IMG/VR virus record: IMGVR_UViG_3300021326_000150
From: a virus
Length of the DNA stretch: 33,581 nt
Reading direction: 5' to 3' (one strand)
The translations under genes were made by a program, and so were the position numbers. Under the pieces are notes generated by a model. The model saw only the letters and a list, made by a program, of their open reading frames with translations. It was not told where the DNA came from and made no database searches. Positions 1 to 28,589 of the stretch are shown here, one piece after another. Position 1 is the stretch's first letter, and each line of letters opens with the position of its first letter.

Positions 1-77
1 CAATATTTTATTAAAAAAGTTAATGATAACTGAACAAGTGTAATTTTAAGAATGTTAAATTTAACGTCAATGAGAAA

Positions 78-570
78 TTGCAATTTAGTTGCAATTTTTC
101 CCCTAAGAATTGCAATTTTATTGCAATTAATTGCAATTCCAAAAATCGAAAAACCCCGCATATCCGTTTTTGACCCTATTTTAATGCAAGTTGCAATTCA
201 GTATTTAAAAGTTGCAATAGTTGCAATTGTGAATGTTTACACGAATGTATATAAATTATTGTAGTATATTACGAAAGTGCCGAACAGCTACTGGGACAGA
301 TGTATCACTTCCTACCCCCATTTTTCGACCTTTGGCTGGCATACCAAGGAAATGTATATATTACGATATATGTATTACAATCCTTGAAGCTTCCTGCAAG
401 CAAACACCATACCCCCAAAAACTGCAATTGCCGTTTTATTTTTTTTTCAAAACCCAAAATTAAACACTTTTCAACATTTGTTCAAAAGTTGCAATTCCAA
501 AATTTGAGTTGCAATTCCAGTTGCAACTGTTGCAATTTTTGTTGCAATAGAATTGCAATTAATTGCAATA
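78..570. repeat. Bipartite array of ~15 TTGCAA(T) palindromic motifs flanking a ~250-bp core
   Basis: Copies at 78, 89, 110, 121, 131, 191, 212, 221 and 489, 509, 521, 530, 542, 553, 563. The 18-bp palindrome ATTGCAATTAATTGCAAT occurs at 120-137 and 552-569. Confidence 0.9.
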
Positions 571-626
571 CCTATAAAATATAGTTGTGATAAAAATATG
601 TGTGTTAAGGATTGGAGTGAAATTTC

Positions 627-1745
627 ATGGATGAAAAAACTCTTGAAAAAAGTGATAATGGTATTGGCCAGGAATTCGAGGTAAAGAAAAATACGGCCAA
701 TTCAAATAGGATAACATTCAGCAGTAAATTTTTTGCTGTCGGTGATAATGTTTATATTCTAACTGAAAGCGAACGCTTTGACTTGATGAAACAACAAGAC
801 CAGATAGATGAATACAAGGCCAGAATCAAAGAGCTTGAAAATATACTAGCTGATGCACCAACTGACATTGACGTTGACGATTTACAGGATCAGCTCAAGA
901 AAAAAGATGAAACAATAGCTACATTGAAAGATAGAGTTGATTCACTTGGAAAAGAGCTTGAAGAACGTAAGGATGTTAAAGTCGAATCTGTTGAAGATAT
1001 TGAATCATTAAAAGAAGAATTGGAAGGTGCTGAAAGTCAAGTCAAATATTGGAAAGGTGCATATGAAAATCTTATGGAATCTTCAGATGGCCTTGCAGCT
1101 AGAAATGAAGAATTGATAAAAGAAAATGATCAACTGAAAAATGCCAACACTAACATTAACGAAACCAATAAGTTACTTAATGACAATATCATTGGCATTA
1201 ACAATAACTATAAGGAATCCAAAGCCGAAATCCAGTCCGCTTTTGAAGAAAGAGAAAATGAATTAAAAGAAACTATCAAAAAACAACAAGCACATATAGA
1301 TGACTTAAGCGAAAAAGTAGAAAGTCTCTCCGGTCTTAAAGAATATATTCCACCTAAACAACATTACGATGAAATCGATAGCTTGAAAGATAAAGTTAAA
1401 GATGCAAAACTTGAATTAGATAAACTTCAGGCTGAAGTTGATATGAAACTTTCAAAACAGAAATCTGAAATTGAAGTTAATCATACCGAAGAAAAAGCAC
1501 AAATGCTTATAGCTTACACTCAAGAAATAAATAGCTACAAATTGAAATATAATGAACTTGCAAAAGATTATAACCATTTACTTGGAGATGCAAGCTCATT
1601 ATCAAGAACAAGTGTATTATTCAGCGGTAGGCACAAGACTATTGTTAAAGATAAAGAACCTGTGGAACTTGAAGAGATAGAGGTGGAAAAAGAACCTACA
1701 GAAACAATAGAATATGTGCCTAAAGATACGCTTACTATAGTTTAA
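627..1745 (+). CDS. Long coiled-coil protein with a possible N-terminal AbrB/swapped-hairpin-like DNA-binding domain
   Basis: 372 aa, E/K/L-rich heptads over about 300 aa. N-terminal VKKNTANSNRITFSSKFFAVGDNVYIL resembles AbrB-like beta-hairpins. GGAG RBS upstream. Confidence 0.7.
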   Translation: MDEKTLEKSDNGIGQEFEVKKNTANSNRITFSSKFFAVGDNVYILTESERFDLMKQQDQIDEYKARIKELENILADAPTDIDVDDLQDQLKKKDETIATLKDRVDSLGKELEERKDVKVESVEDIESLKEELEGAESQVKYWKGAYENLMESSDGLAARNEELIKENDQLKNANTNINETNKLLNDNIIGINNNYKESKAEIQSAFEERENELKETIKKQQAHIDDLSEKVESLSGLKEYIPPKQHYDEIDSLKDKVKDAKLELDKLQAEVDMKLSKQKSEIEVNHTEEKAQMLIAYTQEINSYKLKYNELAKDYNHLLGDASSLSRTSVLFSGRHKTIVKDKEPVELEEIEVEKEPTETIEYVPKDTLTIV

Positions 1746-1757
1746 CATTAACGACGA

Positions 1758-2318
1758 CTATTCCTTATCCTCAATTGATTCCAGAATCTCATCCATCAAT
1801 TTGTTAGTGTCAATGTTATTTTCTTCGCCTATTTCGTATTCTATAACAGAACCAACAATTTTATCGAGAGATCTATCCTGAATAGCTGACACTACCCTTA
1901 ATTTTTTGTGAGTATCTGGATCTACTTTAACATTAATTCTTTTTCTTGGATTTCCTTTATCCAATATCTTATCGTTAATGTCATAAGTTAGATTGTCAAT
2001 GTCATCCTGTTGTAATAAATCAAATCCATCATTACCCTTTTCAAATGATACTTTAACATATTCAACAATATCCAGCCCTTCAATTTTATCTTCCAATATG
2101 GATGTTGCTATTGTTTCTAATGTAGTCTCTTTTGCAGTAGCTATTATTTTCAATGCCTTATGGGTATTTGGAAATAACTTGACTGTTATTTGTTTTTTAG
2201 GAAAAGCTTTCATTTCGTCCATATAGTCTTCACGCACTTGTTTTAAACTTTTTTCACGCTGTATTTGCTTTTTAATTAGCTCATCGAATTTATCATTTGT
2301 CATGTTATACCTCTCCAA
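1758..2318 (-). CDS. Protein with two ribbon-helix-helix (CopG/ParG-like) repeats
   Basis: Internal repeat KQITVKLFPNTHKALKIIA..TLETI..IL / KRINVKVDPDTHKKLRVVS..SLDKI..VI, a strand-helix-helix pattern. Confidence 0.7.
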   Translation of the reverse strand: MERYNMTNDKFDELIKKQIQREKSLKQVREDYMDEMKAFPKKQITVKLFPNTHKALKIIATAKETTLETIATSILEDKIEGLDIVEYVKVSFEKGNDGFDLLQQDDIDNLTYDINDKILDKGNPRKRINVKVDPDTHKKLRVVSAIQDRSLDKIVGSVIEYEIGEENNIDTNKLMDEILESIEDKE

Positions 2319-2484
2319 TTAATTATGTAATTGCACTATTATGTAGTTACATTTATTATCTAGTTAGAATATAATATATTATTAATTGTATATAAACCTA
2401 TGCTAAGATATTAAATTGCAAATATCATTTAGATTGGTTTAATAGAACTACACATTCCGTTTAATAATCTAAATAGGTGTAATT

Positions 2485-3420
2485 ATGAGTAAATATGAAA
2501 ATAAACCAAATATCTTTGAGGATTTACGTTCAGAATATGAAAATTCAAATTGTGGAATATATAAGATTACCAATGTGATAAATAATAAAGCATACATTGG
2601 TCAATCAACTGACATCAAAACTAGATGGAATAACCATAAACTTGAATTAAAAAAGAATATTCATAAGAATTCTCATTTACAAAATGCTTTTAATAAATAT
2701 GGCGAAGAAGCGTTTGAATTTAGAATACTTGAGGAAACTTTTGAAGAAAACCTAGATAATGCTGAAGAATATTGGATTAATTATTTTGATTCAACTAATC
2801 CTAGAAAAGGTTATAATCTCAAATATGGAGGTAATCATTCTAAAAATATAGAAGAGGTTCAGGAGCATATAAATCGAGTTAGAGAATTAAGAAGGCATGA
2901 AGCCCATTATTTTAAAATGAGACATATTAATGATAATGGTGGAATTTCAAGATTATATGAAATGGCAAAAGAAAATAAAACTCAAAAAGAAGCATCATTA
3001 GAATTAAATCTTCCTCAAGTGTATATCACTGAATATTTAAATGAACAAGGCATTTCTGGTTGGAAGGAACTAGTCGATGATGCTAGAGGTTTCAAAGATG
3101 ATTATTCAATCATTGATGAAAAAGGAGGTGTTATATTTATCATGGACCAATTAGTCAATGGAAAGTCATATAAAAGAATAGCTGACGACTTCAATGTTAA
3201 AAGCAAGTTCATTAAAGATTATATGAGTTTTAAAGGAATCGATCCAGATGAAATAAAAAAACATATTTCAAAATGGGCTGTTGAATTAGAGTTGGAAAAT
3301 TTTGGTGGCGTAAATTATATTAAAAAGAATTTAAAACTTGGATTGTCACTTAATGAGATTTCTGAAGAGTGTAAAATTCCCGTACCAACATTATCCAAGT
3401 ATTTGAAGGAACATGCATAA
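2485..3420 (+). CDS. GIY-YIG family endonuclease (free-standing, homing-type) with C-terminal HTH-like repeats
   Basis: CGIYKITN..NKAYIGQS..RWNNH..HKNSHLQNAFNKYG..F..ILE..EEYWI..GYN motif set. Confidence 0.92.
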   Translation: MSKYENKPNIFEDLRSEYENSNCGIYKITNVINNKAYIGQSTDIKTRWNNHKLELKKNIHKNSHLQNAFNKYGEEAFEFRILEETFEENLDNAEEYWINYFDSTNPRKGYNLKYGGNHSKNIEEVQEHINRVRELRRHEAHYFKMRHINDNGGISRLYEMAKENKTQKEASLELNLPQVYITEYLNEQGISGWKELVDDARGFKDDYSIIDEKGGVIFIMDQLVNGKSYKRIADDFNVKSKFIKDYMSFKGIDPDEIKKHISKWAVELELENFGGVNYIKKNLKLGLSLNEISEECKIPVPTLSKYLKEHA

Positions 3421-3459
3421 TATCATTTCATTTACCAACATTACTATTGGAAAAATAAG

Positions 3460-3506
3460 CTGTCCATCTCTGATGGACAGGTTGCGACGAGCTATGCGAG
3501 TCGCAA
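3460..3506. other. Two adjacent hairpins downstream of the GIY-YIG gene (terminator or structured element)
   Basis: CTGTCCATC-TCT-GATGGACAG (3460-3480) and TTGCGAC-GAGCTATGCGA-GTCGCAA (3482-3506). Confidence 0.7.
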
Positions 3507-3640
3507 TAGGTATATACTGAATAATTAGTAATTGGTTGATGATTTAATACACTAACATTAACATTAACGTTAGTGTTTCTAGAAAAATAATTCTCTTACT
3601 GGAATAAAATTTTGAGTGGAAAAAGTAACGTTAACATTAG

Positions 3641-4576
3641 CTATTGCTGATAGTTAGTTACTAAAATTTCATTAATGGCTCCTCTTTTTTTACCGTTAGA
3701 GTTAATTGACCTTTTAGCTTTAACTCTTTCGATATTAAAGTCACCATATAAGTCATCAAAGAAATTATCATCCGGGTCTTCATTCTTAGGGTCTGAATTA
3801 CTTAGAATAGCTTTAGCACCTTTATCTGAAATTCTTTTATAGAATCCCCCAAGTTCAATTTGATGTTCGTCAGTAAATTCAAATCCAGCATATGTTGTAA
3901 AATTAGATTTGCTTGATAATGGCCTATATGGTGGATCTAAATAAACTAAAGAGTTTTCATCAATTAAGTCTTCTGATACATCATAATTTCCGTTAATGAT
4001 ATTTGTATGCTTTAATGTCTTACTAACGGCTTTAATATTTTTATCATCACAGATTAAAGGGTTTTTATATTTACCATGAGGAACATTAAATTCACCATGT
4101 CTATTTAATCTAAATAAGCCGTTGAAGCAAGTTTTGTTCATGAATATTACCTGTGACGCCCTTACAACATGGGCATCAGAATAAGTCTCATAATCAAACT
4201 CTTTTACATCGTCATTAAAGTTAGTTCTAATATTTAGATAATATTCTTTCCTATCATCCTGTTCTAATGGAACATATTCTTCTTGTAAGTTAGATAATAA
4301 TTCAATTAAGTGCTTTGGGTCTTTTTTTATAACTTTATAGGTTAATATAAGCTCTGGATTAATGTCATAGATATAAGATTCTGTGACCTCATAGTTATTC
4401 ATTAAATCGAAGTATAATGCTCCACCACCAACAAAGACTTCAAAATATTTGTCTATCTTCCTAGATTTCTTTATTTCATCTGGAAACCTATCTTCGATTG
4501 TTGTTAATAGCTGGGATTTTCCACCAGCCCATTTTAAAAATGGTTTTGCACCCAAATTATTATCATACTTAAGCAT
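3641..4576 (-). CDS. dam: Dam/DpnM-family N6-adenine DNA methyltransferase (probably GATC)
   Basis: AKPFLKWAGGK, YFEVFVGGGA, FNGLFRLN..G.FNVP.G.Y, VYLDPPY, ILSNS motifs. Start placed at the ATG at 4576 (MLKYDNN) rather than 4630. Confidence 0.95.
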   Translation of the reverse strand: MLKYDNNLGAKPFLKWAGGKSQLLTTIEDRFPDEIKKSRKIDKYFEVFVGGGALYFDLMNNYEVTESYIYDINPELILTYKVIKKDPKHLIELLSNLQEEYVPLEQDDRKEYYLNIRTNFNDDVKEFDYETYSDAHVVRASQVIFMNKTCFNGLFRLNRHGEFNVPHGKYKNPLICDDKNIKAVSKTLKHTNIINGNYDVSEDLIDENSLVYLDPPYRPLSSKSNFTTYAGFEFTDEHQIELGGFYKRISDKGAKAILSNSDPKNEDPDDNFFDDLYGDFNIERVKAKRSINSNGKKRGAINEILVTNYQQ

Positions 4577-4690
4577 ACTATAATGTTTATGAAAAATTAT
4601 TATATAAATGTAATTAGAGAGCGTTTGCAAAGTATTATAAGCTATTTTATAAATACTTTTAAATAGTGAATTTGTTTTTTGGAGTGAATA

Positions 4691-5161
4691 TTGATGGTAA
4701 AGACGGATACAGGTTATGAAGTCTATTTTGCACCAGGAAGATTTGATAAATGGTGTGTTTATTTAACTGATGATGCAAACAAAAAAACAATCCCATTGGA
4801 CAAAGATTATTTCCAATGGATTCTTGATTTATCCAAGAAATATGGAGTAGATCAAGTATATTCTGATTTTCTCATAGTCTATGAAGCTGCTGATGAAATA
4901 TTTGATGAGGATGAATGTTACTCAATCTGTAGTGAAGTGGATAAACATTATGAAGAGGATACAACTCACTGGTGGGTAATATACTATATGACAATGGTTG
5001 CAGAATGTAAAAAGAAAAACGCTATATTAAAAAAGAGAATTAAACATTTGGGTGTATATAATATTTTATTTGATGGATATGATGTAGATTATGTTACTAA
5101 ATATATGAGAGGCAAGGGTTGGAGATATTTAGACAAATTGATGAAAGAAAGAGGAATTTAA
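4691..5161 (+). CDS. Hypothetical protein inserted in opposite orientation between the methylase and endonuclease genes
   Basis: 156-aa ORF with FAPGRFDKWCVYL and IYYMTMVAE..K..ILKKRIK.LG motifs. GGAG RBS. Confidence 0.75.
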   Translation: MMVKTDTGYEVYFAPGRFDKWCVYLTDDANKKTIPLDKDYFQWILDLSKKYGVDQVYSDFLIVYEAADEIFDEDECYSICSEVDKHYEEDTTHWWVIYYMTMVAECKKKNAILKKRIKHLGVYNILFDGYDVDYVTKYMRGKGWRYLDKLMKERGI

Positions 5162-5166
5162 TTCCT

Positions 5167-6027
5167 CTATAAATTATCTAAGAAGTCATCAAGTAGTTTA
5201 TCAAGCATGTGATAATTAAAGATGAAATCTATATTTGCGCCTGCATTCATTAATGATGACATCATCTTTTTCCAACCAAAACCATCAGTTATCCATAAGA
5301 ATATTAAATCAGTTTCATTAATCTCATTTTGAAGGTCAGCGTAAGCATGCGCAACTTCTATTGGTTTACTACCTGTTGAATTGTAGAAATTACATTCAAA
5401 TACAATTTTTGGAGTATTATGTTTATAAATAACAAAATCAAATCTTTTATTTCTATCAATAGCTGAAACAAACTCTTCTGCCATGAAAGTGATGCCTTCA
5501 CGAGTTTCTAATTTTTCTTCAAGTAAAGTTCCAACAGCATCTTCAAATATATGTCCGCTTCTATTTTTTCTTGCATTTGTATCCAGCCCAACTTCAGTTC
5601 CGACTAGATATGAATATAAATCATCAATGTTATTAAATAAATCTAATAAACCGGTTTTAATTGAAAAGTCAACGATTTCTTCAACATCAAAACTATTTTT
5701 TGAAAAATTAACTTTCTTTGAAGATTTGGTTTTTAAATTAAAGATTGGAACTTTTTTATTCCTAATTGCTAATATTAATGGTAATAATGGAACCACTTCA
5801 GGATAATTAACAATAATTTCTCTAAATTTAGCTTCTGATTCACTAGCTGGAATTTTATTTAAGCTATTTAAAATACTAATTTCTACTACCTTATCTTCAA
5901 GATTAGCGTATACTTTCTCCCAATTTACGTAAAATTCGTATGTATGATTTGATTCAAGTAATGTATTTAAAAAATCATTTGAAAATTCATCTAAGGATGA
6001 ATATCCTATTCGTTTATAATTAACCAT
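5167..6027 (-). CDS. DpnII-family type II restriction endonuclease
   Basis: YL.GTEVGLDTNARKNRSG..E, KRFDFVI, FECNFY..GSK..E.A.AY..LQ, FLWITDG.GW motifs typical of DpnII/MboI-like enzymes. Confidence 0.92.
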   Translation of the reverse strand: MVNYKRIGYSSLDEFSNDFLNTLLESNHTYEFYVNWEKVYANLEDKVVEISILNSLNKIPASESEAKFREIIVNYPEVVPLLPLILAIRNKKVPIFNLKTKSSKKVNFSKNSFDVEEIVDFSIKTGLLDLFNNIDDLYSYLVGTEVGLDTNARKNRSGHIFEDAVGTLLEEKLETREGITFMAEEFVSAIDRNKRFDFVIYKHNTPKIVFECNFYNSTGSKPIEVAHAYADLQNEINETDLIFLWITDGFGWKKMMSSLMNAGANIDFIFNYHMLDKLLDDFLDNL

Positions 6028-6158
6028 AATTTCACCAAAGCCCTTAACTATGATTATCTCTTTATTATATGCTTATAAATATTTTACTAACAATTAATTG
6101 ATAATATTTTTATTATATCGTTTACAAAATAATATTAGTTTATTTTTAACAATGGATT

Positions 6159-6464
6159 GTGATAAAAATGGCAAACAATAGATTAGGGCTTGAAAGGATG
6201 ATGAATCTTTGTGATAAACTACAAAAAAAGCAAATCGACTTTGTTAGTTTTATAGAACAATTTGAAAGCATTTGTTTTAATGATATAAGTTCCGATGCGA
6301 TGGATAACTTTAAAGATGGTTGGAGTAGAGGAGAGGTAACTAATTTAATGAAACATGTCTTACGTGCTTATGATAATGATGCAAAAGCTTTAAGACGTCT
6401 TGAAGTAGATTTATTCCTTGAAGATTATGACTTAAGCAATGATCTTGAAGTCATACATTTTTAA
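6159..6464 (+). CDS. Hypothetical protein
   Basis: 101-aa ORF with normal composition. No family recognised. Confidence 0.6.
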   Translation: MIKMANNRLGLERMMNLCDKLQKKQIDFVSFIEQFESICFNDISSDAMDNFKDGWSRGEVTNLMKHVLRAYDNDAKALRRLEVDLFLEDYDLSNDLEVIHF

Positions 6465-6467
6465 TAA

Positions 6468-6866
6468 TTAAAATTTCTCAATGTCTCTGTTATGGATCCA
6501 TTCACGATGTTTTCCAATAGCTACATTAACAATAACGTCAATTAAATCAAGTTCATCTTCTTGTTTGAAATAGTAACGGCCAGGTCCTTCCATTATTTGT
6601 CTTAAATCATAGAATGGTTTTGGTTTAATTGCATTTGGATTCATTAAGCCATAATTTTTCAATAGCTTTACATTAGTTGGTTCGTATTTTTCAAGTTTGG
6701 ATTTCTGGACTTTGGTTGCAACAGTCTTTTCTTTCCTGTCAAATAGTATAGCTATTTGTGAACTGTCAATTAATATGCTTGATTCAATCAGCAGCAATTT
6801 AATTTCCTTACCTTTAACTGTTATTGTTGTTACATATGAATTATTATTATCTAAAAATAATTTCAT
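6468..6866 (-). CDS. Hypothetical protein, weakly RhuM/antirepressor-N-like DNA-binding domain
   Basis: SQIAILFDR..TV and FYDLRQIMEG..RY resemble the RhuM-like pattern. Weak similarity only. Confidence 0.45.
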   Translation of the reverse strand: MKLFLDNNNSYVTTITVKGKEIKLLLIESSILIDSSQIAILFDRKEKTVATKVQKSKLEKYEPTNVKLLKNYGLMNPNAIKPKPFYDLRQIMEGPGRYYFKQEDELDLIDVIVNVAIGKHREWIHNRDIEKF

Positions 6867-6925
6867 TTTATAGCCTCTGATATATATTATAGCTATTATC
6901 TGCTTTATATTTTTTTAAAAATAGG

Positions 6926-6954
6926 TAGCTGGGAGAGGGTCTAATTCCCAGCTA
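6926..6954 (-). terminator. Hairpin downstream of the capsid operon
   Basis: TAGCTGGGA...TCCCAGCTA 9-bp stem, followed on the minus strand by CCTATTTTT, ~160 bp after the last capsid gene. Confidence 0.55.
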
Positions 6955-7112
6955 ATTCGGATTTGGAGTTTTTAAACTCGTAGCAGAAGATGTAGTGAAG
7001 AAAAACAATTGAAAACTCCACTATATCAACCTGAGATAGTAATATTCTTTTTCCCCTACACGCATCTCTTAACGAAAGGGCAGATAAATATTTAGGAGAT
7101 TTTACTATGGCT

Positions 7113-8045
7113 TTATGCTCTGAAATTACCTTTGATTATTCTATTAGGTGCGTTCATTAACACACCGACGGAGGAAAGTATGAATAGCTTTGTATACATA
7201 GGTAATTCATCACGAATGTCCTTGCGCATGAATTCAATTAATGGATAGAAATCGTACATCTCACCGTCCGGGCCTAAAGGTGCAACGGTTGTTCCTGTAG
7301 TCCTGGAGTATAACAATTTCATTCCGGGGTTAATGTAGTCCATACCAATATAGGTTTTGTCACCCATCTCAGCACCACCGTCACAGACAGCAGTTCCAAG
7401 GATATCAATATTATCAACGCCATAATAGCTTTTGATTAATTCTACCGGTTCAACTTGTCTGTTGCTTGAGAATATGTCAGATTTTAAAGTTGTTAATGAT
7501 TTATAGCTTACGGCCATACTGTTTAAGTTAGCATAGCTTCCAGCTGATTCTTTGAATTTCTCTTGAGCTTTGAGGATGGTCATACCGGTATCGTCACCAG
7601 ATTCAAAGTCATAGGTTGCAACTTTGGATGAATTCATTATCATGTCAATAGCTGCCTTTTCAATACTTCGGCCGATAAGAATACCGACATCCTGAAGCAT
7701 ATCATTAACAGAGATTAAATTGGAATCGAGCATTTGTGCGGAAACGTTTAATACTCCACCGATAGTGTCAATGGAGATAGTTTCACTGATTGGTTTTCTT
7801 ACGTTTAATTCCTGAAGGGTTGCACCTGGAGCAATGTCTTTGGCCTCTCCAAGTACACCTGCCTGAATAGCTTCCTCGATATTAACTCTTTGAGACATGT
7901 AAGTGTAATACTGGCTGTTTTCTTCTATCTCTTGCTTTGGAAGTAATCTGGTGAATTTCATCCATTTGGCTGAAGTGTCAGCAACAATTTGAGCCATTAC
8001 TTCATTTTGTACTTTAGCATCATTTCCTTTTGTTAACATTAACAT
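7113..8045 (-). CDS. Major capsid protein paralog 2 (HK97-like fold)
   Basis: 310 aa. GEAKDIAPGATLQELNVRKPISETISIDTIGGVLNVS..LDS is an E-loop/P-domain-like pattern, then backbone helix D...IGRSIEKAAI. Lies downstream of a decoration gene. Confidence 0.8.
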   Translation of the reverse strand: MLMLTKGNDAKVQNEVMAQIVADTSAKWMKFTRLLPKQEIEENSQYYTYMSQRVNIEEAIQAGVLGEAKDIAPGATLQELNVRKPISETISIDTIGGVLNVSAQMLDSNLISVNDMLQDVGILIGRSIEKAAIDMIMNSSKVATYDFESGDDTGMTILKAQEKFKESAGSYANLNSMAVSYKSLTTLKSDIFSSNRQVEPVELIKSYYGVDNIDILGTAVCDGGAEMGDKTYIGMDYINPGMKLLYSRTTGTTVAPLGPDGEMYDFYPLIEFMRKDIRDELPMYTKLFILSSVGVLMNAPNRIIKGNFRA

Positions 8046-8052
8046 TCACCTC

Positions 8053-8991
8053 TTATGGCCTGCAAGTACCTTTTAAAGCAAGACCAGGTTTATTTAATAA
8101 TATACCTACTTTACTTTGTATAAATAACTTTGTATATTGAGGTAACTCATCGTAGATATCTTTACGCATGATTTCAATGATAGGATAGAAGTCTGCAATG
8201 TTTTCATCGCTTGTAATAGGTGCAACAGTAGTTCCAGAAGATTTGGAATACAATACTGTTAATGGTGCATTACGGAGATCAAAACCAATGTAGTCTTTAT
8301 CACCAATTAATGAACCGCCGTCAGCTTGGGTTGTTCCTAAAAGATCTATATTATCAATACCGTAGTATGCTTTAATATCTTCTACAGGTTGTACACGTTT
8401 GTTACTTGCGTAAGCTAATTGTTTAACATAGCTTAATGTCTTGTAAGACTCAGCCATTATTGTTAAATCTGCACCTGCTCCAGCATTACCTTTGAAAGCT
8501 TCTTGTGCTTTGATAACAAATTTACCGAAAGCATCCATAGTATCGTCAGTTTCACTGGTATTGTAAACAGGAACATTTGGAGAGCTTATTATGGTATCGT
8601 AAATGTTAAACTCAATACGATTAGCAATAACAGTTGCTACATCGCCTAATAAATCTTCAAATGAAACAATATCTGAATCAAAGACATCTTTATTAACATT
8701 AAGGACTCCACCAACAGTATCAATGGAGATAGTGTCTGTTACTGGTTTTCTGATGTTTAATTCTTGAAGGCTTGCGCCTGGAGCAATGTCTTTGGCCTCA
8801 CCAAGAAGACCTTTTTTAATAGCTTCATCAAGATTAATGTTTTGTCTAAAGTAAGTATAATAATCTGAGTTCTCTTTAATTTCTTGTTTAGGAAACAATC
8901 TAGCTAATTTCAATCTTTTTGCGGTTTCATCAGTAATAGTTTGAGCTATTACCTCGTTTTGAACTTTGGTATTATTTCCTTTTGTAATCAT
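8053..8991 (-). CDS. Major capsid protein paralog 1 (HK97-like fold)
   Basis: 312 aa, colinear with 7113..8045 over its full length. The two share a 23-bp identical DNA stretch at 7825-7847 and 8777-8799. Confidence 0.8.
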   Translation of the reverse strand: MITKGNNTKVQNEVIAQTITDETAKRLKLARLFPKQEIKENSDYYTYFRQNINLDEAIKKGLLGEAKDIAPGASLQELNIRKPVTDTISIDTVGGVLNVNKDVFDSDIVSFEDLLGDVATVIANRIEFNIYDTIISSPNVPVYNTSETDDTMDAFGKFVIKAQEAFKGNAGAGADLTIMAESYKTLSYVKQLAYASNKRVQPVEDIKAYYGIDNIDLLGTTQADGGSLIGDKDYIGFDLRNAPLTVLYSKSSGTTVAPITSDENIADFYPIIEIMRKDIYDELPQYTKLFIQSKVGILLNKPGLALKGTCRP

Positions 8992-9004
8992 TCATTATCA
9001 CCAA

Positions 9005-9487
9005 CTATTCGGTTATGTCGTATGGTCTGAATACTTCAATGTATTTGTAATCATCTGAATTAGCTACAGGGTGCATTGCAATATATTCGCCGTCGTTTGA
9101 TTTAATAGCTCCAGTACTGCTTAAAGCTATTCTATCATTAACGGCAATGTTAGATAAACCGCTTGCTAATTTTAATCTGAATAAATGGCCTAATACAAGG
9201 ATGGCAGTTTTTCTTTTACCGCCAGTCATGGTAACTGGATCGTTAACTGCAATACCTAATATGATTTCACCGTCAGCTGCAGTGTATTTTTTAACTGTAG
9301 GTTTTCCAATATCTGAGTTAGCTGATAAGGTTACAGCGTCATCGACTTTGATTTTATCGCCTGCATACTCATATCCAGGAGTTTCTCCTGTTGGAGTTGT
9401 TACAGTAGTTGCAGTAATTGTACCTTCATCTAACAAGAAAGTTGTAACTTCTTTTCTTTCTTCAAGTAAAACAATTGCATCTGGCAT
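9005..9487 (-). CDS. Capsid decoration/cement protein (DUF2190-like)
   Basis: 160 aa, beta-rich: IKVDDAVTL, ILGIAVND, LVLGHLFRL, AVNDRIAL..GAI. Immediately precedes the capsid genes. Confidence 0.7.
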   Translation of the reverse strand: MPDAIVLLEERKEVTTFLLDEGTITATTVTTPTGETPGYEYAGDKIKVDDAVTLSANSDIGKPTVKKYTAADGEIILGIAVNDPVTMTGGKRKTAILVLGHLFRLKLASGLSNIAVNDRIALSSTGAIKSNDGEYIAMHPVANSDDYKYIEVFRPYDITE

Positions 9488-9497
9488 TATTAATGTC

Positions 9498-9620
9498 CTC
9501 CACTTATATTAAATATTATATAATTTATTATTTCTGTTATATAAATATCTCTATATAATGGCTACTTTTTTTAATCTTGCGTGGGGATTAACATTAACAT
9601 TAACGATTGACATTAACGGT
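9498..9620 (-). promoter_or_regulatory. Promoter region of the decoration-capsid operon: RBS, TATA box and upstream ACATTAAC cluster
   Basis: GGAGG at 9498-9502 (minus), TTTATATA at 9538-9545 (minus), and three ACATTAAC copies at 9591-9618. Confidence 0.6.
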
Positions 9621-9785: not shown

Positions 9786-11321
9786 TTAATTCATAAAATT
9801 AAAAAAGTCTTTTTCTAAAGGTAATTCAACATCATTGATGATTAAATCTCGTAAATTATTTAATTCATTTATCATAATATTTTTCTGGATGTCTAATTGG
9901 TAAATGCCTGAATTGTTAATCATTTCAGCATCTAATTCTTGAAAATTAGATAAATCCAATTTTGATTTATGATAATATTCATTATAGTAATATTTTTTAA
10001 TTTCATTTTGTTTTTCATCAGGGAAAATAGGAAATGGCAATTGTTTTAGATATGGAATTGCAATACTGCCCCCATTTCCACCAGTAGCGCAGATATCAAT
10101 TAATCCAATTTTTCTAAGATAATCTAAAAAACATTTAATAAAAATTGATTCTGATAAATTACTATCCTTATGAGTTAAAGTTATTCCATGGATATTTGTA
10201 ATTATATTATCATCATCAAAAATAATTAAAGACCTGCCTTTTTCAAATCCTTCTGCACCAAATATTATATCACCTTTATTTAAGGTTTTTAAATCATTTG
10301 GATTACCAATATATTCCTCTTCTAGAACAGTTCCATATATAGAAATATTTTTTGGTTTGATACATCTATAAAATCCTTTTTTTTGAACATCAGAATATAT
10401 TGAATCACCTATTGCAGAGAACTGAAGGTTTTGACCCCTACTAATCTCAAAATTCCAATCTTCAATGCCTTTAAAACCATGTTTATAATTAGTAATTAAA
10501 AACTCTTCATTTTTAAAATAGTCTGAGTATATAGAAGCATCTAATCTTTTTTTAGTATTTATTTCAGAAAATTTAGGAAAATTAAAATTAAAATTATCAT
10601 CTTTTTGATTATTTAAAATTTCCTCATGTATAACATCCATAATTTTATGATATTTATCCTGAATAGCTTTTTCACGATTAATTATAGCTTTAACTAATAA
10701 TGAAATATACTCAATAATTTTATTTCTGTTCTGATTAGGAAAAGGTATTTTTAAGTCTAACCATAATGTTTTCGCATGTTTTAATGTAGATCCTTTAGGT
10801 GTTAATAAGTATAATTGTTCTTTAAAGAAATCTGATTTCATCATTGCAAAAATATAATACTTTAAATCTTCCTCAAAAACTAATTTTACTAACCCTCCGG
10901 ACATAATATATTGATTTAAATCTTCATTAACATATACTACTTCGCCAACATTGGAATCTTTAACAATTAAAATATCTCCTTCAGTTAGGTTAAATTCTAC
11001 TTCTTTTTTTGCATAACTTTCAATATAATTTTCATAAGTTGTTGGAAAAATTGGTTGAGCTTCAGTATATGTATTAACACTAGGTAAAAAAGAATAACTT
11101 TGCACCGCTTTTGTTCTAATAAAATTAAATCCAGAATCAAAACTTAAATAATAGTCAGAACCAATATCATTTCCTATTATATAATCAATTAATAACTCTT
11201 TAACTAGCTTTATATTTTTATTTTTAATTGGCACAATATTATAGTTTGATGGAGTAAGCTTTTTATCATTACCTATTTCACTAAATCTAATTGTTTTAGG
11301 TGTCTTTGTATATTTCATCAT
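9786..11321 (-). CDS. Restriction-modification specificity (S) subunit with two target-recognition domains
   Basis: Duplicated architecture: L.EGDILIVKD..VG...YYIFAMMKS..GSTLKH...LKIPFP..Q and LNKGDIIFG..G...FIKCFL...G....LKQLPFPIFP..Q. Overlaps the upstream gene by TAATG. Confidence 0.8.
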   Translation of the reverse strand: MMKYTKTPKTIRFSEIGNDKKLTPSNYNIVPIKNKNIKLVKELLIDYIIGNDIGSDYYLSFDSGFNFIRTKAVQSYSFLPSVNTYTEAQPIFPTTYENYIESYAKKEVEFNLTEGDILIVKDSNVGEVVYVNEDLNQYIMSGGLVKLVFEEDLKYYIFAMMKSDFFKEQLYLLTPKGSTLKHAKTLWLDLKIPFPNQNRNKIIEYISLLVKAIINREKAIQDKYHKIMDVIHEEILNNQKDDNFNFNFPKFSEINTKKRLDASIYSDYFKNEEFLITNYKHGFKGIEDWNFEISRGQNLQFSAIGDSIYSDVQKKGFYRCIKPKNISIYGTVLEEEYIGNPNDLKTLNKGDIIFGAEGFEKGRSLIIFDDDNIITNIHGITLTHKDSNLSESIFIKCFLDYLRKIGLIDICATGGNGGSIAIPYLKQLPFPIFPDEKQNEIKKYYYNEYYHKSKLDLSNFQELDAEMINNSGIYQLDIQKNIMINELNNLRDLIINDVELPLEKDFFNFMN

Positions 11322-13423
11322 TAATCACCTAAAAACTTATGTTTTAATGTTTCTTCCTGAGTATTTACCCATTCTTTAAATTCTGTAATGATACTACTAA
11401 AGTCTTCAGCAAGAATTGCATCACCATTTTCATCAGTTACTACATCAAATGTTTCTTCATCAATTTTATATTTCTTTTTAAATGTTTTAATTGATTTAAC
11501 TGTTTTAACTTCATAACCAACGTTTTCTATTGTTTTTGCAAAAATTTCATAATCATTTTCTTTCAATTTATTTAATGTATCTTTATCTGGTTTATATCCT
11601 ATAATTAAAACTGTATTAACATTAGTATCAGCAAAAACATTTGTAGGTAGTTCAAATAATGCCACTATTCTAATATTGTCCATTAACCATTCTCTAGCTT
11701 TAACATCCCTATCTACGGATGCAATACTATTAGATAAAACGATTCCAAACCTACCATTCTCTTTCAATAATCTAACCGCATTTTCTAAGAATAAGATTCC
11801 CATATCCATGCTTTTACTTTTATCATTATCCCACAATTCATATAATTCAGCAATATCCCTATCTTTCCTATTTTTAGGTTTATATGCTCTGCCCTTACCA
11901 AAAGGAGGATTAGTTAAAACAACATCAAATTTCATTAATTCAGTTTTATCAACCCAATTATCCCAATTTCCATTTTGATGATATTTATGGTTTAATTCTA
12001 CAATATTTCCTTTAATATCAAATTTATGATTTAATGAACCTTTATTTGGAACATATTCAATCTTTGCATTTCCATCCCCATTAAGTAACATGTTTAATTG
12101 AGATAGCATAATCATTTGTTTGTCATTATCTAATCCATATAAGTTGGAATCATTTAACTTAGGGTTTGAATTAACGTAACTGACTGAGAGGAAATCACTA
12201 ATTCCAGTACATGGATCAATCAACCGTTCATTTCCTCTAGGGTTTACAATATTAACTAAAAAGTTAATTAATACTAATGGTGTTAAAAATTGTCCATTTT
12301 GTTCTTTAGCAAATTCATTAGAGAATTTATAGAAAACTAATTGATATAAATCAGTTTTATAAGATTTAATAAATGAATAATTTTGAAATGTTTCAACTAC
12401 TGAAATTACTGTTTGAATATGAGATTCATCTCTCCAATCAATATGGTCATTTTCTAAAATTTTAGTATACACTTCTTTTGCATTATCGAAGATATTAGTC
12501 ATTCTATTGATAAAGTTTTGTATGTTATCATCCATAAGAGAGTCATAATTCTTTTCTTCATCAAGAATATAAAAATTTAAAGGGGAATTATATTTCTCAT
12601 CATAAATCTTTAAAGCAAGAACTTCAATTATTATACGATAACCATCAGGTGAATTAAGACCAACTTTGTCTAAAGTAAATGTTACATTGTTTAAATCTTC
12701 ATTAATTTTATTAGATTTAATACCAGTAATTTTTTCTAAATCATCAACTGTTCTATTGCTTAAATCTACATTTACAAATTTTTTCTTATCTATGATATCT
12801 TTAAAAGATGGTAAGCTAGTATATGAATCAGGTAAGTGTAAAGATAACCTTTCTAATTCTGAATTTCCTTTACCATTTTTTGTATCATCATATCGAGTGT
12901 ATTTCTCATTATCTTTTTGAAAAATCCATAATTTCTCATGATCATAATATATCCCAACAACAAAATCTTTTTCGGATTCTTTCATTGCTGGTTTTAATTG
13001 TTGATTATAATAAGTTTCAAGTTTATTTCCTTTCTCATTTTTAAATTCAATTGCCACTATCAAATGTTTTCTTAACCAATCCAAATCATCTTGGGTTTTA
13101 TCAGTCCAAAATTTATTATAATGATTAATCCAATCTTTATCATCAAAAATAGCTGAATCCATTTTTAAAGGGGTTGATGATGGATTTCCTTTTGGAAAAA
13201 AAACTTCTGCACCTATATAATCTTTATTAAATAATCCTGAATTAATTATCGAATAAATAAATTGCCATTTATAATATTCTTCATTTGGAAGGGATTTTAC
13301 ATTTTTAATTGGGATATCTTTTTTCATTTTTCCATTAACTGGAACTAAACTATCTATGCTGCTTTTTTTCTCGTGTTCAGCATTGAATTTGTCTTTTGAC
13401 TCCTTAAATGATTTAGAACTCAT
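11321..13423 (-). CDS. Fused restriction endonuclease / N6-adenine methyltransferase (Type IIB/IIG-like, BcgI-A architecture)
   Basis: N-terminal PD-(D/E)xK-like MDSAIF...IVAIEFK. MTase motifs GQFLTP, IDPCTG, GLDND, VVLTNPPFG, LENAV.LL..GR.GIVL. Confidence 0.88.
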   Translation of the reverse strand: MSSKSFKESKDKFNAEHEKKSSIDSLVPVNGKMKKDIPIKNVKSLPNEEYYKWQFIYSIINSGLFNKDYIGAEVFFPKGNPSSTPLKMDSAIFDDKDWINHYNKFWTDKTQDDLDWLRKHLIVAIEFKNEKGNKLETYYNQQLKPAMKESEKDFVVGIYYDHEKLWIFQKDNEKYTRYDDTKNGKGNSELERLSLHLPDSYTSLPSFKDIIDKKKFVNVDLSNRTVDDLEKITGIKSNKINEDLNNVTFTLDKVGLNSPDGYRIIIEVLALKIYDEKYNSPLNFYILDEEKNYDSLMDDNIQNFINRMTNIFDNAKEVYTKILENDHIDWRDESHIQTVISVVETFQNYSFIKSYKTDLYQLVFYKFSNEFAKEQNGQFLTPLVLINFLVNIVNPRGNERLIDPCTGISDFLSVSYVNSNPKLNDSNLYGLDNDKQMIMLSQLNMLLNGDGNAKIEYVPNKGSLNHKFDIKGNIVELNHKYHQNGNWDNWVDKTELMKFDVVLTNPPFGKGRAYKPKNRKDRDIAELYELWDNDKSKSMDMGILFLENAVRLLKENGRFGIVLSNSIASVDRDVKAREWLMDNIRIVALFELPTNVFADTNVNTVLIIGYKPDKDTLNKLKENDYEIFAKTIENVGYEVKTVKSIKTFKKKYKIDEETFDVVTDENGDAILAEDFSSIITEFKEWVNTQEETLKHKFLGD

Positions 13424-15003: not shown

Positions 15004-15009
<6 letters not shown>
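14722..15009 (+). CDS. DUF2958-like small mobile-element protein
   Basis: PIVVKF...W.WYI......YGLVDG.EKELG.F.L.E..V pattern. GGAG RBS. Confidence 0.7.
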
Positions 15010-16176
<1,167 letters not shown>

Positions 16177-16180
16177 TATT

Positions 16181-17203
16181 TTATTCCTCCTCATGTGTCC
16201 ATGGTTCAATACTTATTCTTTCCCATTGAATGTGGCCTCCTGCTTCATAAATCATTATTGCAGGATAGAATGTATCAAATGTTATCTTATCTGAAATATC
16301 AGCTTCATATGTGAAATCATCTGTAGCTCCATGTGTTATTGTAGCTTTAACATAACCGTTATCATAATACAAATCAAAATAATACTTCTGCGAATCCAAT
16401 GCCAGCTGTCCTGATGAAACATTAACATCCCGTACTACATGGTCAGATGTGGAATATTTCAGTCCTTTCTTAGCAGGATAAGCACCCAGTTCCAGAATTT
16501 TTGTATCTCTGTAATGGCTTAATGATTTGGAATTGACTAAAGCTATTGCATCGCCCCATCCCTGGTTGCTGTCCTTTTTCTGATAGATAGCTACTTCCAT
16601 ATGAATTCCGCTTGTCCCATCAATACCGTTAGAGTATACCCCGGGTATTGCCATTACTACAGAAGCTGCTACAGTATCTTTTGCCAAATCATAAACCTCA
16701 CTATCATCTACCATATCAATATCAAATGTGGGTGATATGCTTGTTGGATACTTAACAATTTCATAAGCCCCTAAATTTCCATCCCATGCATAATCATCGA
16801 AATTTAAAAATGGAACGCATGTATAATTAATGTTAAAGGCTTCTTTTCTTCCAACTTTGCAGATGACAGTTCCTGTAGCATCTTTAACATATGGTACTGT
16901 AACGGCTGACTTTCCGTTAGAATCTGTTCTGACAACACTGTGAACTCCATCAACCCACCAGTCAATTGGAACTCCTGAATCTTCAAGTGTTACGCTGTAT
17001 TCAAATCCTTCCGGAGGAACTGTATCTGATTTTACAATACGTAATACGGGGATTCCAAACATCATCATTAACCGTTCTGCAAGTTCAAATATTGTGAGAG
17101 TATTGTCCCACCAGATGTTATATTCAGTCAGCTTATTTCTAAGCTTTGTTCTTGTATTTCCAAGCCTTGTGTTTTCCAAAATAACATTACTAGCTATGCT
17201 CAT
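16181..17203 (-). CDS. Putative virion fibre/receptor-binding protein with beta-rich C-terminus
   Basis: N-terminal RLGNTRTKLRNKL...TIFELAER shared with the next gene. Start placed at MSIASN (17203), avoiding a 92-nt overlap. Confidence 0.65.
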   Translation of the reverse strand: MSIASNVILENTRLGNTRTKLRNKLTEYNIWWDNTLTIFELAERLMMMFGIPVLRIVKSDTVPPEGFEYSVTLEDSGVPIDWWVDGVHSVVRTDSNGKSAVTVPYVKDATGTVICKVGRKEAFNINYTCVPFLNFDDYAWDGNLGAYEIVKYPTSISPTFDIDMVDDSEVYDLAKDTVAASVVMAIPGVYSNGIDGTSGIHMEVAIYQKKDSNQGWGDAIALVNSKSLSHYRDTKILELGAYPAKKGLKYSTSDHVVRDVNVSSGQLALDSQKYYFDLYYDNGYVKATITHGATDDFTYEADISDKITFDTFYPAIMIYEAGGHIQWERISIEPWTHEEE

Positions 17204-17213
17204 CTTTAACGCC

Positions 17214-18074: not shown

Positions 18075-18079
18075 CTTAA

Positions 18080-18934: not shown

Positions 18935-18937
18935 TTA

Positions 18938-20175: not shown

Positions 20176-20443
20176 TGCCCTCCAGCTTTTCGATTCTCTC
20201 TTCCAGTTCATCCAAGTTTATCTTGTCTTGTTTTTCACATGTATATTCATAAATGTCAATTACTGCTACAATAACAATAGCTACTGTTAATGGTAACAGT
20301 CCTTCGATTAAAGCATACTTTGTTGCGTTGGTCATTATGATGTTGATAGCTATTGCTGTTAAAACTGCACTGGAGATTGTTTTGGTAAAGTTACAAATGA
20401 CTATTTTATTTTTTAGTTTGTTCATGATAACAATATCCTCCAA
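20162..20443 (-). CDS. Small two-TM membrane protein (holin-like)
   Basis: Two hydrophobic segments followed by a charged coiled tail. Confidence 0.6.
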   Translation of the reverse strand: MEDIVIMNKLKNKIVICNFTKTISSAVLTAIAINIIMTNATKYALIEGLLPLTVAIVIVAVIDIYEYTCEKQDKINLDELEERIEKLEGNDER

Positions 20444-20449
20444 AGAAGT

Positions 20450-21049: not shown

Positions 21050-21103
21050 GTTAACAACCTCTCTATAATATTATATGTTTTATTACTTATTTTATTATTT
21101 TGT

Positions 21104-21880: not shown

Positions 21881-21881
21881 T

Positions 21882-23072: not shown

Positions 23073-23127
23073 GATTAATAATTTATTATGTATTTTATAT
23101 AAATCATATAATAATTATAGTAATATT

Positions 23128-27348: not shown

Positions 27349-27486
27349 TAACAATCACCTAAGGAGTTTTTTCTTAGAAAAATAAATATTTCCAGTAAGG
27401 ATATTTTCAGTTGAAATATACCTCTATTATATACTTTATTATATTATTTATATAAAATAAGTAATAAATTTAAGGTGAAATGAGAG

Positions 27487-27514
27487 TTGCAATTCCTGTT
27501 GCAAAAATTGCAAT
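27487..27514. repeat. Satellite cluster of three TTGCAA motifs
   Basis: GTTGCAATTCCTGTTGCAAAAATTGCAATTCC, the same unit as the 78-570 array, upstream of the portal operon promoter. Confidence 0.65.
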
Positions 27515-27621
27515 TCCAAAAAAAGAATATCAATAACACTACTAAAATCAATAACTAAAGATTAAAAGAATTGCTATTAAAAAAATAAGTAAAATAAAAA
27601 AAGTAAATAATATAAATAAAG

Positions 27622-28412: not shown

Positions 28413-28589
28413 TTAATCCAATGTTGATTGTTTATCTTCATTCTGATCTCTTTCTAAACCTTCTTGAATATACCTTGTAATCAGGTCAACTTCTTTTGTC
28501 CTACTTCTCTTAGCTTGAATTTCAAATTCAATAGCTAAATCTTCTGAAATTTTAAATGATTTCTGCTTAGTGGGTTCCTGAATCGCCAT
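28413..28589 (-). CDS. Small ribbon-helix-helix protein (58 aa, below ORF-track cutoff)
   Basis: MAIQEPTKQKSFKISEDLAIEFEIQAKRSRTKEVDLITRYIQEGLERD, a CopG-like pattern. GTGA RBS. Confidence 0.7.
   Translation of the reverse strand: MAIQEPTKQKSFKISEDLAIEFEIQAKRSRTKEVDLITRYIQEGLERDQNEDKQSTLD

What the first reader, a model, noticed from the sequence alone, without database searches (positions are those of the whole stretch)
78..2318. Centromere-like phased palindrome array beside a DNA-binding coiled-coil protein and a tandem-RHH protein: candidate segregation system
Seen: 15 TTGCAA copies in two blocks (8 and 7), mostly one or two helical turns apart. Each block contains the same 18-bp palindrome, and the blocks flank a ~250-bp core with a repeated AATGTATATA. 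Directly downstream is a 372-aa coiled coil with an AbrB-like N-terminus, converging on a double-RHH gene. Known: R1 parC is two iteron blocks around a promoter bound by the RHH protein ParR, and pSK1 Par is a single DNA-binding coiled-coil protein acting at upstream repeats. Inference: an NTPase-less archaeal partition or DNA-organising module, which would imply an extrachromosomal virus-plasmid lifestyle.
Basis: partly seen in the sequence, partly recalled or inferred. Interest (0 to 1): 0.72.

Follow-up and report, generated by a model that had tools for sequence, protein, structure and literature searches.

The report
Phased palindrome array with coiled-coil gene cassette
A gut-methanogen tailed virus carries a conserved 2-kb cassette, a helically phased array of an 8-bp palindrome plus a coiled-coil protein gene, that occurs only in relatives lacking an integrase, so it may keep the virus genome outside the host chromosome, though nothing has been tested at the bench.

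Summary
Window 78-568 has 15 TTGCAA, all in the form RTTGCAAY, in blocks of 8 and 7. Each block holds the same 18-bp palindrome, and spacings are multiples of about 10.5 bp.

The window is a Methanobrevibacter tailed virus whose contig breaks inside the array. Seven related 34-37 kb genomes have a third block further left (24-25 copies in all), then a divergent pseudomurein endoisopeptidase (Pei) lysis gene, not a rep gene. Motif columns are 96% identical between relatives; spacers are 75%.

New here:
- Array plus coiled-coil gene form one 2,038-bp cassette.
- Integrase-bearing relatives with 93% identical TerL and 98% identical capsid protein, one integrated in a complete chromosome, lack exactly this cassette. 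Two keep a 49-bp remnant of the gene's 3' end.
- At least 26 cassette-less terL loci in the genus have a tyrosine integrase within about 12 kb. None of seven cassette-bearing genomes has one.
- The tandem-RHH gene occurs in both types, so it is not tied to the array.
- The "AbrB-like" head is not supported, and no NTPase was found.

Best reading (0.4): a KfrA or pSK1-Par-like autoregulated maintenance module for an extrachromosomal state. Main rival: a transcriptional control hub.

The parts
1..76 (.). AT-rich, conserved spacer between block A (outside the window) and block B; the contig breaks here
   Evidence: Aligns to vir323 L001:6001-6076. 67% of columns are invariant and pairwise identity is 84%. 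Block A lies about 26 bp further left in relatives.
77..228 (.). Block B: 8 copies of RTTGCAAY, including the 18-bp palindrome at 120-137
   Evidence: The copies are conserved in all relatives while the linkers diverge.
229..487 (.). Core between blocks B and C. It holds two AATGTATATA TATA-like elements (244-253, 351-360), a variable middle part, a conserved CTTCCTGCAAGCAAACA element and a T-run at 434-447.
   Evidence: No conserved RNA structure and no Rfam family above threshold.
488..569 (.). Block C: 7 copies of RTTGCAAY, including the 18-bp palindrome at 552-569, abutting the promoter of the coiled-coil gene
570..626 (+). Inferred archaeal promoter (TATA-like TATAAAATATA at 574-584) and 5' leader with GGAGTG ribosome-binding site (614-619)
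   Evidence: Read directly from the sequence. Nearly invariant in 8 genomes, and kept in the host-chromosome copy that lacks the array. The promoter role is inferred.
627..1745 (+). Coiled-coil protein gene, 372 aa: small beta-rich head 1-45, coiled coil 47-323, conserved C-terminal tail
   Evidence: AF2 model. 87 homologues, all from Methanobrevibacter-type samples. The head profile finds only its own family among 1.8 billion proteins. Lost together with the array in integrase-type relatives.
1758..2303 (-). Tandem RHH-like protein gene, 181 aa; a neighbour, not part of the cassette
   Evidence: RHH_10 E 1.9e-4 (below Pfam's cut-off), PHROG 7146 E 9e-9, Arc-like E 1.9e-5. Present in integrase-type proviruses that lack the array. 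AF2 model unusable, pLDDT 40.6.
27486..27515 (.). Second small cluster of the same motif (3 copies), 30-65 bp upstream of the TATA-rich region in front of the portal operon
   Evidence: The equivalent cluster is found in G001:C4, G038, G047, G068, G018:C136 and vir323.
28413..28589 (-). 58-aa single-RHH-looking protein gene; an alternative candidate binder of the array
   Evidence: RHH assignment is by eye from the translation; not scanned against Pfam/PHROGs. By tblastn it is present in cassette-bearing genomes and not detected in the integrase-type proviruses. Binding is untested.

Best explanation
The array is a platform of about 24 binding sites (15 inside the window) for a sequence-specific dimeric DNA-binding protein that recognises the 8-bp palindrome RTTGCAAY.

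The sites sit at whole numbers of helical turns, so bound dimers would line one face of the DNA and could build a cooperative nucleoprotein complex. The array and the adjacent coiled-coil gene form one 2-kb accessory cassette.

The most likely binder is the cassette's own product. It has a small N-terminal head, about 275 residues of coiled coil and a conserved C-terminal tail.

Three site positions suggest regulation:
- Block C abuts the gene's own TATA element, which suggests autoregulation.
- Block A faces the divergent Pei lysis gene.
- A 3-copy satellite site sits upstream of the portal operon.

I propose that the complex maintains the virus genome as an extrachromosomal element, by pairing or segregating copies or by tethering them to a host structure through the coiled coil and tail. 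This would work like plasmid KfrA or pSK1 Par and their repeated operators, without an NTPase of its own.

Shown: the array, its selective conservation and phasing, its co-inheritance with the gene, and its mutual exclusion with integrase.

Inferred: which protein binds, the promoters, and the maintenance function.
For: - The motif is about 55-fold enriched locally.
- Motif columns are 90% invariant with 96% pairwise identity. Linkers are 51% and 75%.
- Spacings are multiples of 10.5 bp in 7 genomes.
- The array sits at the same place in vir323, the IMG/VR contig G104, G001:C4, G018:C21, G047:C25, G068:C24 and G038:C162.
- A 46%-identical homologue (L078) also has an upstream array, with an ATTTGCAAAT-type motif.
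- vir323 L001:5756-7793 (array plus coiled-coil gene) is replaced by about 100 bp in the proviruses or contigs of G009, G064 and G041. G064 and G041 keep a 49-bp remnant of the gene's 3' end.
- G009's copy is integrated in a complete 2.27-Mb chromosome, with a tyrosine integrase and host genes at its edge.
- G064 also has an integrase.
- At least 26 terL loci (90-93% identical TerL) that lack the coiled-coil gene have an integrase within about 12 kb on the same contig.
- None of 7 cassette-bearing genomes has an integrase, including circular vir323 and G047:C25.
- All cassette-bearing contigs are 34-37 kb with no host flank.
- RA3 KfrA has the same architecture: 355 aa, a head of about 53 aa, a coiled-coil tail, and an operator of five 9-bp repeats over its own promoter that is needed for stable maintenance (PMC7783346).
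- Omega of pSM19035 uses three iteron blocks of 9, 7 and 10 copies over promoters (PMC5016525).
Against: - No DNA-binding fold is recognised in the coiled-coil protein's head. Pfam gives only coiled-coil noise, the PDB profile search gives nothing meaningful, and hhalign against host MazE/AbrB domains gives 0.06% probability. The head is net acidic.
- No ParA, ParM or TubZ-type NTPase was found in the window or relatives.
- A chromosomal copy of the coiled-coil gene in G053 keeps a conserved head but has no array.
- The genomes are metagenome bins, so 'own contig' may reflect virion DNA of a purely lytic lineage.
- Relatives are not independent samples.
- Other DNA-binding proteins could be the binder: the 58-aa RHH, two wHTH proteins and the tandem RHH protein.
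Confidence: 0.4

Rival explanations
1. The array is purely a transcriptional control hub. It would be a set of operators or upstream activating sites through which a viral regulator times the divergent Pei lysis gene, the coiled-coil gene and the portal/structural operon. It would have no role in genome maintenance.
For: - The array fills the roughly 900-bp divergent intergenic region between Pei and the coiled-coil gene.
- Block C abuts a TATA-like element.
- A satellite cluster lies just upstream of the TATA-rich region of the portal operon.
- The virus encodes several small regulators: tandem RHH, the 58-aa RHH-looking ORF (assigned by eye) and two wHTH proteins.
- Omega and KfrA are also autoregulators.
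Against: - 24 sites over 720 bp is far more than a promoter switch usually needs.
- Integrase-type relatives express the same Pei and structural genes without the array.
- This reading does not explain the exclusion with integrase.
Confidence: 0.28
2. The cassette is a plasmid-type replicon for the extrachromosomal state. The repeats would act as iterons around the conserved AT-rich A-B spacer or the core, with the coiled-coil protein or a host factor as initiator.
For: - Repeat blocks flank a conserved, very AT-rich spacer of about 90 bp and a conserved core.
- No replication protein or other origin is recognised in these genomes.
- The exclusion with integrase would also fit a plasmid replicon.
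Against: - An 8-bp palindrome at 10.5-bp pitch is unlike 17-22-bp iterons.
- A coiled-coil protein is unlike known initiators.
- Host chromosomes have no such clusters, so the array does not copy the host origin.
- GC skew only follows gene orientation.
- Relatives replicate without the array.
Confidence: 0.12
3. The coiled-coil gene, with its array, is an accessory defence or superinfection-exclusion module rather than a maintenance module.
For: - In the host contig G053:C31 the coiled-coil and tandem-RHH genes flank a bSEFIR defence gene (PADLOC E 4.9e-89). They lie next to Cas1, CRISPR-type repeats and a MutH-like nuclease/C5-methylase pair.
- In the window the neighbouring genes are restriction-modification systems and a homing endonuclease.
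- HsdS::coiled-coil C-terminus fusions exist on host-size contigs.
Against: - No PADLOC family fits beyond coiled-coil noise.
- A defence role does not explain a 24-site phased array.
- The G053 locus looks like a virus remnant used as an insertion hotspot.
Confidence: 0.08
4. The array is a packaging recognition site (pac or cos). It would resemble the P1 pac site as I recall it, with hexamer repeats in two groups around the cut site (own knowledge, not checked in a paper here), and would be bound by the small terminase.
For: - The layout is two repeat groups around a unique core.
- Three assemblies (the window, G104, G068:C24) end within about 300 bp of the array.
Against: - Relatives with 93% identical TerL and 74-77% identical TerS lack the array entirely.
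- Other contigs of this virus group also end at other repeat regions, so the ends are best explained as assembly breaks.
- G104's ends are a 127-bp assembly overlap.
- The array lies 5.7 kb from terS.
Confidence: 0.04
5. The array is a chromatin element. Its 10.5-bp alternation of a GC step and AT-rich DNA would position or nucleate host archaeal histone polymers on the virus genome.
For: The periodicity is strict over about 700 bp. That Methanobrevibacter has histones preferring about 10-bp periodic GC and AT signals is my own knowledge and was not tested here.
Against: The whole 8-bp palindrome is conserved, not just the periodic dinucleotides. That points to base-specific recognition. Host chromosomes show no such arrays.
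Confidence: 0.04

Closest known systems
KfrA-type proteins of IncP-1/IncU plasmids (RA3 KfrA)
   Same: - Similar size: 355 versus 372 aa.
- A small N-terminal head followed by a long coiled-coil tail.
- A repeated short operator (five 9-bp repeats) over the gene's own promoter.
- A role in stable maintenance of an extrachromosomal replicon (PMC7783346).
   Different: - No sequence relation. There is no KfrA_N or HTH match, and the head is beta-rich and of unknown fold.
- 24 palindromic sites in three blocks rather than five direct repeats.
- No ParA/ParB partners.
- The host is an archaeal virus rather than a bacterial plasmid.
pSK1 Par (staphylococcal single-protein partition system)
   Same: One protein with a DNA-binding head and a coiled coil acts at repeats upstream of its own gene, with no NTPase of its own. 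This comes from Simpson et al. 2003 as cited in PMC5016525; the details are my own knowledge.
   Different: Par has an HTH head. Here no DNA-binding fold is recognised, the array is much larger, and function is untested.
Omega/parS of pSM19035 and ParR/parC of R1 (RHH centromere-binding proteins on iteron blocks)
   Same: Short repeats (7-11 bp) occur in blocks of 5-10 copies overlapping promoters. Omega has three blocks of 9, 7 and 10 copies and also acts as a global regulator (PMC5016525).
   Different: - Those systems have a ParA or ParM motor; none is found here.
- The tandem-RHH protein next to the cassette is not co-inherited with the array.
- The promoter lies downstream of block C, not between blocks.
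EBNA1 and oriP family of repeats, or papillomavirus E2 (episome tethering)
   Same: Many copies of a palindromic site are bound by a viral dimer that tethers an episome to host chromatin and also regulates transcription (own knowledge).
   Different: The proteins are unrelated and the domain of life differs. This is an analogy only.

Membership tests
AbrB/MazE/SpoVT swapped-hairpin domain (head of the coiled-coil protein) | Sequence or profile match to the MazE_antitoxin/SpoVT_AbrB family (PF04014) | tested here: not met
   - No PF04014 hit for the window protein at E up to 1. PF04014 is also not among the 25 families that most of the 23 scanned homologues matched.
- A six-frame PF04014 search of G001 finds host genes but not the viral gene on C4.
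- hhalign of the head profile A4 against host MazE/AbrB domains A5 gives probability 0.06%.
- The PDB profile search finds no AbrB entry.
- Only a motif-level resemblance remains (RI.F....F.VGD.VYV).
KfrA-type plasmid proteins | N-terminal KfrA_N winged-HTH DNA-binding head | tested here: not met
   There is no KfrA_N or other HTH family among the hits at E up to 1. The AF2 head has two short strands and no HTH.
KfrA-type plasmid proteins | Long alpha-helical coiled-coil tail; repeated operator overlapping its own promoter | tested here: met
   Helices span residues 47-323. Block C ends 4 bp before a TATA-like element 43-53 bp upstream of the start codon. The promoter is inferred.
Type II partition system (ParMRC) | Actin-like ParM NTPase encoded with the centromere-binding protein | tested here: not met
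   No such family appears among the Pfam or PHROG hits of the window's ORFs or of the accessory ORFs of relatives.
Type I partition system (ParA with ParB, ParG or omega) | Walker-type ParA ATPase | tested here: not met
   No ParA, CbiA or MinD hit in the same scans.
RHH (Arc/MetJ/CopG) superfamily, for the 181-aa neighbour | Beta-alpha-alpha motif, here twice in one chain | tested here: inconclusive
   - Pfam RHH_10 scores 22 bits, below the cut-off of 27. FitA-like and Antitox_RHH hits are weak.
- PHROG 7146 E 9e-9 and Arc-like E 1.9e-5, at residues 35-76 and 120-163.
- Two conserved K.I.VK..P.THK.L motifs.
- AF2 model failed, pLDDT 40.6.
Centromere (cis-acting partition site) | Confers stability or incompatibility in cis and is bound by the cognate protein | not testable with these tools
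   This needs EMSA or ChIP and plasmid stability assays.
pac site with repeats around a cut site | Co-inherited with the cognate terminase | tested here: not met
   Relatives with 93% identical TerL and 74-77% identical TerS lack the array.
Iteron-type replication origin | Adjacent initiator (Rep) gene; indispensable for replication | tested here: not met
   No Rep-like gene is adjacent. Close relatives lack the array. A role limited to the extrachromosomal state is not excluded.

The most novel reading that the evidence does not exclude
A tailed virus of gut methanogens persists as a plasmid-like prophage by means of an NTPase-free maintenance cassette. A coiled-coil protein of a new family would assemble on about 24 phased palindromes and segregate or tether the genome. 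This cassette would be the functional alternative to the integrase module used by its close relatives.
Probability: 0.3. Interest if true: 0.8.

Novelty: new variant of a known kind. Interest (0 to 1): 0.6.

Why it matters
How archaeal tailed viruses persist in their hosts without integrating is largely unknown, and no maintenance system has been described for viruses of methanogens.

This family offers a natural comparison. Near-identical virion genes are paired either with an integrase or with this array-plus-coiled-coil cassette. That makes the question testable by binding assays, plasmid-stability assays and read-level checks of integration.

The cassette could also supply a stabilising element for the few genetic tools available in Methanobacteriales.

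Tried and rejected
- **Host-origin mimic:** TTGCAA pairs are scattered singly in five host genomes and cluster only on the viral contig.
- **Structured RNA in the core:** no Rfam hit above threshold. RNAalifold on seven distinct sequences gives weak energies and no covariation on either strand.
- **AbrB-like head:** not supported by Pfam, the PDB profile search, hhalign, the protein atlas or a profile search of 1.8 billion proteins.
- **GC skew as an origin marker:** it only tracks gene orientation.
- **Contig ends as physical termini:** other contigs of the group also break at other repeats, and G104's ends are a 127-bp assembly overlap.
- **attP:** the provirus junctions in G009 lie between terL and portal, not at the array.
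- **Structure of the tandem-RHH protein:** the model is unusable, pLDDT 40.6.
- **Fetching contigs of distant homologues:** The IMG/VR, metagenome and genome scans added few loci.
- **The compendium paper on methanogen viruses (Medvedeva et al. 2023, recalled from memory):** not held in the library.
Full report
**What the window is.** The 33.6-kb window is a tailed virus of Methanobacteriales.
- It encodes a large terminase, a portal, two HK97-type capsid proteins and collagen-like fibres.
- It also encodes a Dam/DpnII restriction-modification (R-M) pair, an Eco57I-like methylase and a GIY-YIG endonuclease.
- Its closest public record is Caudoviricetes sp. vir323. This is a 34,179-bp circular genome, host Methanobacteriales, from goat faeces. 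It is 78.5% identical over window 1-2400.
- A 36.6-kb contig of the nearest held genome (G001:C4) is 98.9% identical over window 15005-33318 and 80% over the array region.

**The observation.**
The window-wide count (36) exceeds every one of 100 shuffles, whose mean is 17.3.
- Every array copy is the 8-bp palindrome RTTGCAAY.
- The 18-bp palindrome occurs in both blocks.
- AATGTATATA occurs twice in the core.
- Spacings in the window and six relatives are 9-12, 20-21, 29-31 and 42 bp. These are multiples of one helical turn.

**The array is larger than the window shows.**
- In vir323, the IMG/VR contig G104, G001:C4, G018:C21, G047:C25, G068:C24 and G038:C162 the same array lies upstream of the same gene.
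- In those genomes it has three blocks (A 8 copies, B 8-9, C 7-9), giving 24-25 copies over about 720 bp.
- The window begins in the AT-rich spacer between blocks A and B.
- Left of block A lies a promoter-like AT-rich stretch. Next comes a pseudomurein endoisopeptidase (Pei) gene transcribed away from the array.
- The window lacks Pei and about 4 kb that vir323 has.
- Contigs of this virus group also break at other repeat regions, and G104's ends are a 127-bp assembly overlap. The window's edge is best read as an assembly break.

**Selection on the motif.** In an alignment of seven distinct genomes, motif columns are 90% invariant with 96% pairwise identity. Linker columns inside the blocks are 51% invariant with 75% pairwise identity. 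New copies even arise in linkers of some genomes. A 46%-identical homologue of the coiled-coil gene (L078) also has an upstream array, built on ATTTGCAAAT-type sites and ending at its TATA-like element.

**A second site.** Three copies lie at 27486-27515, just upstream of the TATA-rich region in front of the portal operon. Six relatives (vir323, G001:C4, G018:C136, G038, G047, G068) have the equivalent cluster.

**The proteins.**

The 372-aa protein:
- It is modelled as a small head (two short strands, pLDDT 63-74), a coiled coil over residues 47-323 and a low-confidence tail.
- The tail is nonetheless the best-conserved part of the family.
- The 'AbrB-like' label fails every test I could run: Pfam on 23 homologues, a PDB profile search, hhalign against host MazE/AbrB domains (0.06%) and a six-frame PF04014 search.
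- A profile of the head finds only its own family among 1.8 billion proteins. DNA binding by this protein is therefore an inference from position, not from fold.

The 181-aa neighbour:
- It has two conserved K.I.VK..P.THK.L segments and weak RHH/Arc-like matches.
- Its structure model failed.

**The key comparison.**
- The tandem-RHH gene occurs in genomes that have no coiled-coil gene.
- In G009, a complete 2.27-Mb chromosome, it belongs to an integrated provirus. That provirus has 93% identical TerL and 96-98% identical capsid proteins. It has a tyrosine integrase about 6.5 kb beyond terL, and host genes start directly after the portal gene.
- There, and in G064:C79 and G041:C9, the RHH gene is followed after about 100 bp by Pei.
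- DNA alignment shows that vir323 L001:5756-7793 is exactly what is missing. This 2,038-bp stretch holds the Pei-side promoter region, the three blocks and the coiled-coil gene.
- G064 and G041 keep a 49-bp remnant of the gene's 3' end, which is a deletion scar.
- Array and coiled-coil gene are therefore one cassette. The RHH gene is not part of it.
- The cassette is dispensable for virion production, lysis and lytic replication.

**Exclusion with integrase.**
- TerL at 90-100% identity occurs in 41 of 103 genomes of the genus, at about 60 loci.
- The coiled-coil gene occurs in only nine genomes.
- Cross-reading, at least 26 terL loci without the cassette have a tyrosine integrase within about 12 kb on the same contig. 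Many sit at coordinates far beyond a virus length.
- None of the seven cassette-bearing genomes has an integrase by tblastn or Pfam. These include circular vir323 and G047:C25, which has a 141-bp end overlap.
- All cassette-bearing contigs are 34-37 kb with no host flank.
- Two caveats apply. These are metagenome bins, and related genomes are not independent.

**Cautionary observations.**
- In G053:C31, a host contig, the coiled-coil and RHH genes (64-65% identity) are the only virus genes. They have no array and flank a bSEFIR defence gene. They lie beside Cas1, CRISPR-type repeats and a restriction-modification pair.
- Half-HsdS proteins on host-size contigs end in the last 68 residues of the coiled-coil protein.
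- Both look like remnants at a hotspot for defence-gene insertion. They show that the gene can exist without the array.

**Interpretation.**
- The array has the anatomy of a cooperative protein-binding platform.
- Its gene partner has the architecture of KfrA and pSK1 Par. In those proteins a head plus a long coiled coil acts on a repeated operator over the gene's own promoter and contributes to stable inheritance (PMC7783346).
- The three-block layout over promoters recalls omega/parS of pSM19035 (PMC5016525).
- Together with the integrase exclusion, I rate an autoregulated extrachromosomal-maintenance module as most likely (0.4).
- A purely regulatory hub comes second (0.28). A plasmid-type replicon (0.12), defence (0.08), a pac site (0.04) and histone positioning (0.04) follow.
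- Membership in any known family fails on sequence. This is a resemblance in how it may work, not family membership.

Noticed in passing
Proteins P0080-P0087; junction equivalent to window ~1540-1560: Several half-HsdS proteins (type I R-M specificity subunits with different target-recognition domains) on 111-201 kb contigs end in a near-identical copy of the last 68 residues of the coiled-coil protein. The join is at QKLRF|NELAKDYNHLL. They are probably scars of R-M cassettes replacing the array and most of the gene in integrated relatives. The contigs could not be fetched.
   Followed up: partly
G053:C31 (L066) 1693-9577; L012 1-1500: On a host chromosome contig the coiled-coil and tandem-RHH genes flank a bSEFIR defence gene. 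They lie beside Cas1 and three copies of a 37-bp CRISPR-type repeat separated by about 1.1 kb and about 150 bp. A MutH-like nuclease and a C5 methylase are also nearby.
   Followed up: partly
window 27486-27515: A satellite cluster of three RTTGCAAY copies lies upstream of the portal operon and is conserved in relatives. In integrase-type relatives the terL-portal interval holds the integrase/att module instead.
   Followed up: partly
window 33189-33349; G001:C4 27304-27415, 31427-31545, 36269-36427: A dispersed 120-160 bp repeat has one copy near the window's right end and three copies in the G001:C4 relative. Contig ends of this virus group tend to fall at this and other repeat regions.
   Followed up: partly
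genus-wide: TerL at 90-100% identity is present in 41 of 103 genomes of the genus, often in several copies per genome (G001 has four). This is a very widespread provirus family with mosaic accessory modules.
   Followed up: partly
window 2485-6027 and 9786-13423: Compared with relatives, the window carries extra insertions. One holds a GIY-YIG endonuclease, Dam methylase, DUF7004 and DpnII endonuclease. The other holds an Eco57I-like methylase with a 511-aa protein matching type I specificity subunits. Relatives carry other R-M systems or adhesin-like proteins at the same places.
   Followed up: partly
G047:C25 27733-28743 (L071 7733-8743): A 336-aa protein combines MCM N-terminal and OB domains with an HNH nuclease domain and lacks the AAA+ part.
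   Followed up: no
window 2304-2484: The promoter region of the tandem-RHH gene holds one AATTGCAAAT site (2414-2423) and a one-mismatch ATTGCAC site (2330-2336). These are possible further weak sites for the same binder.
   Followed up: no
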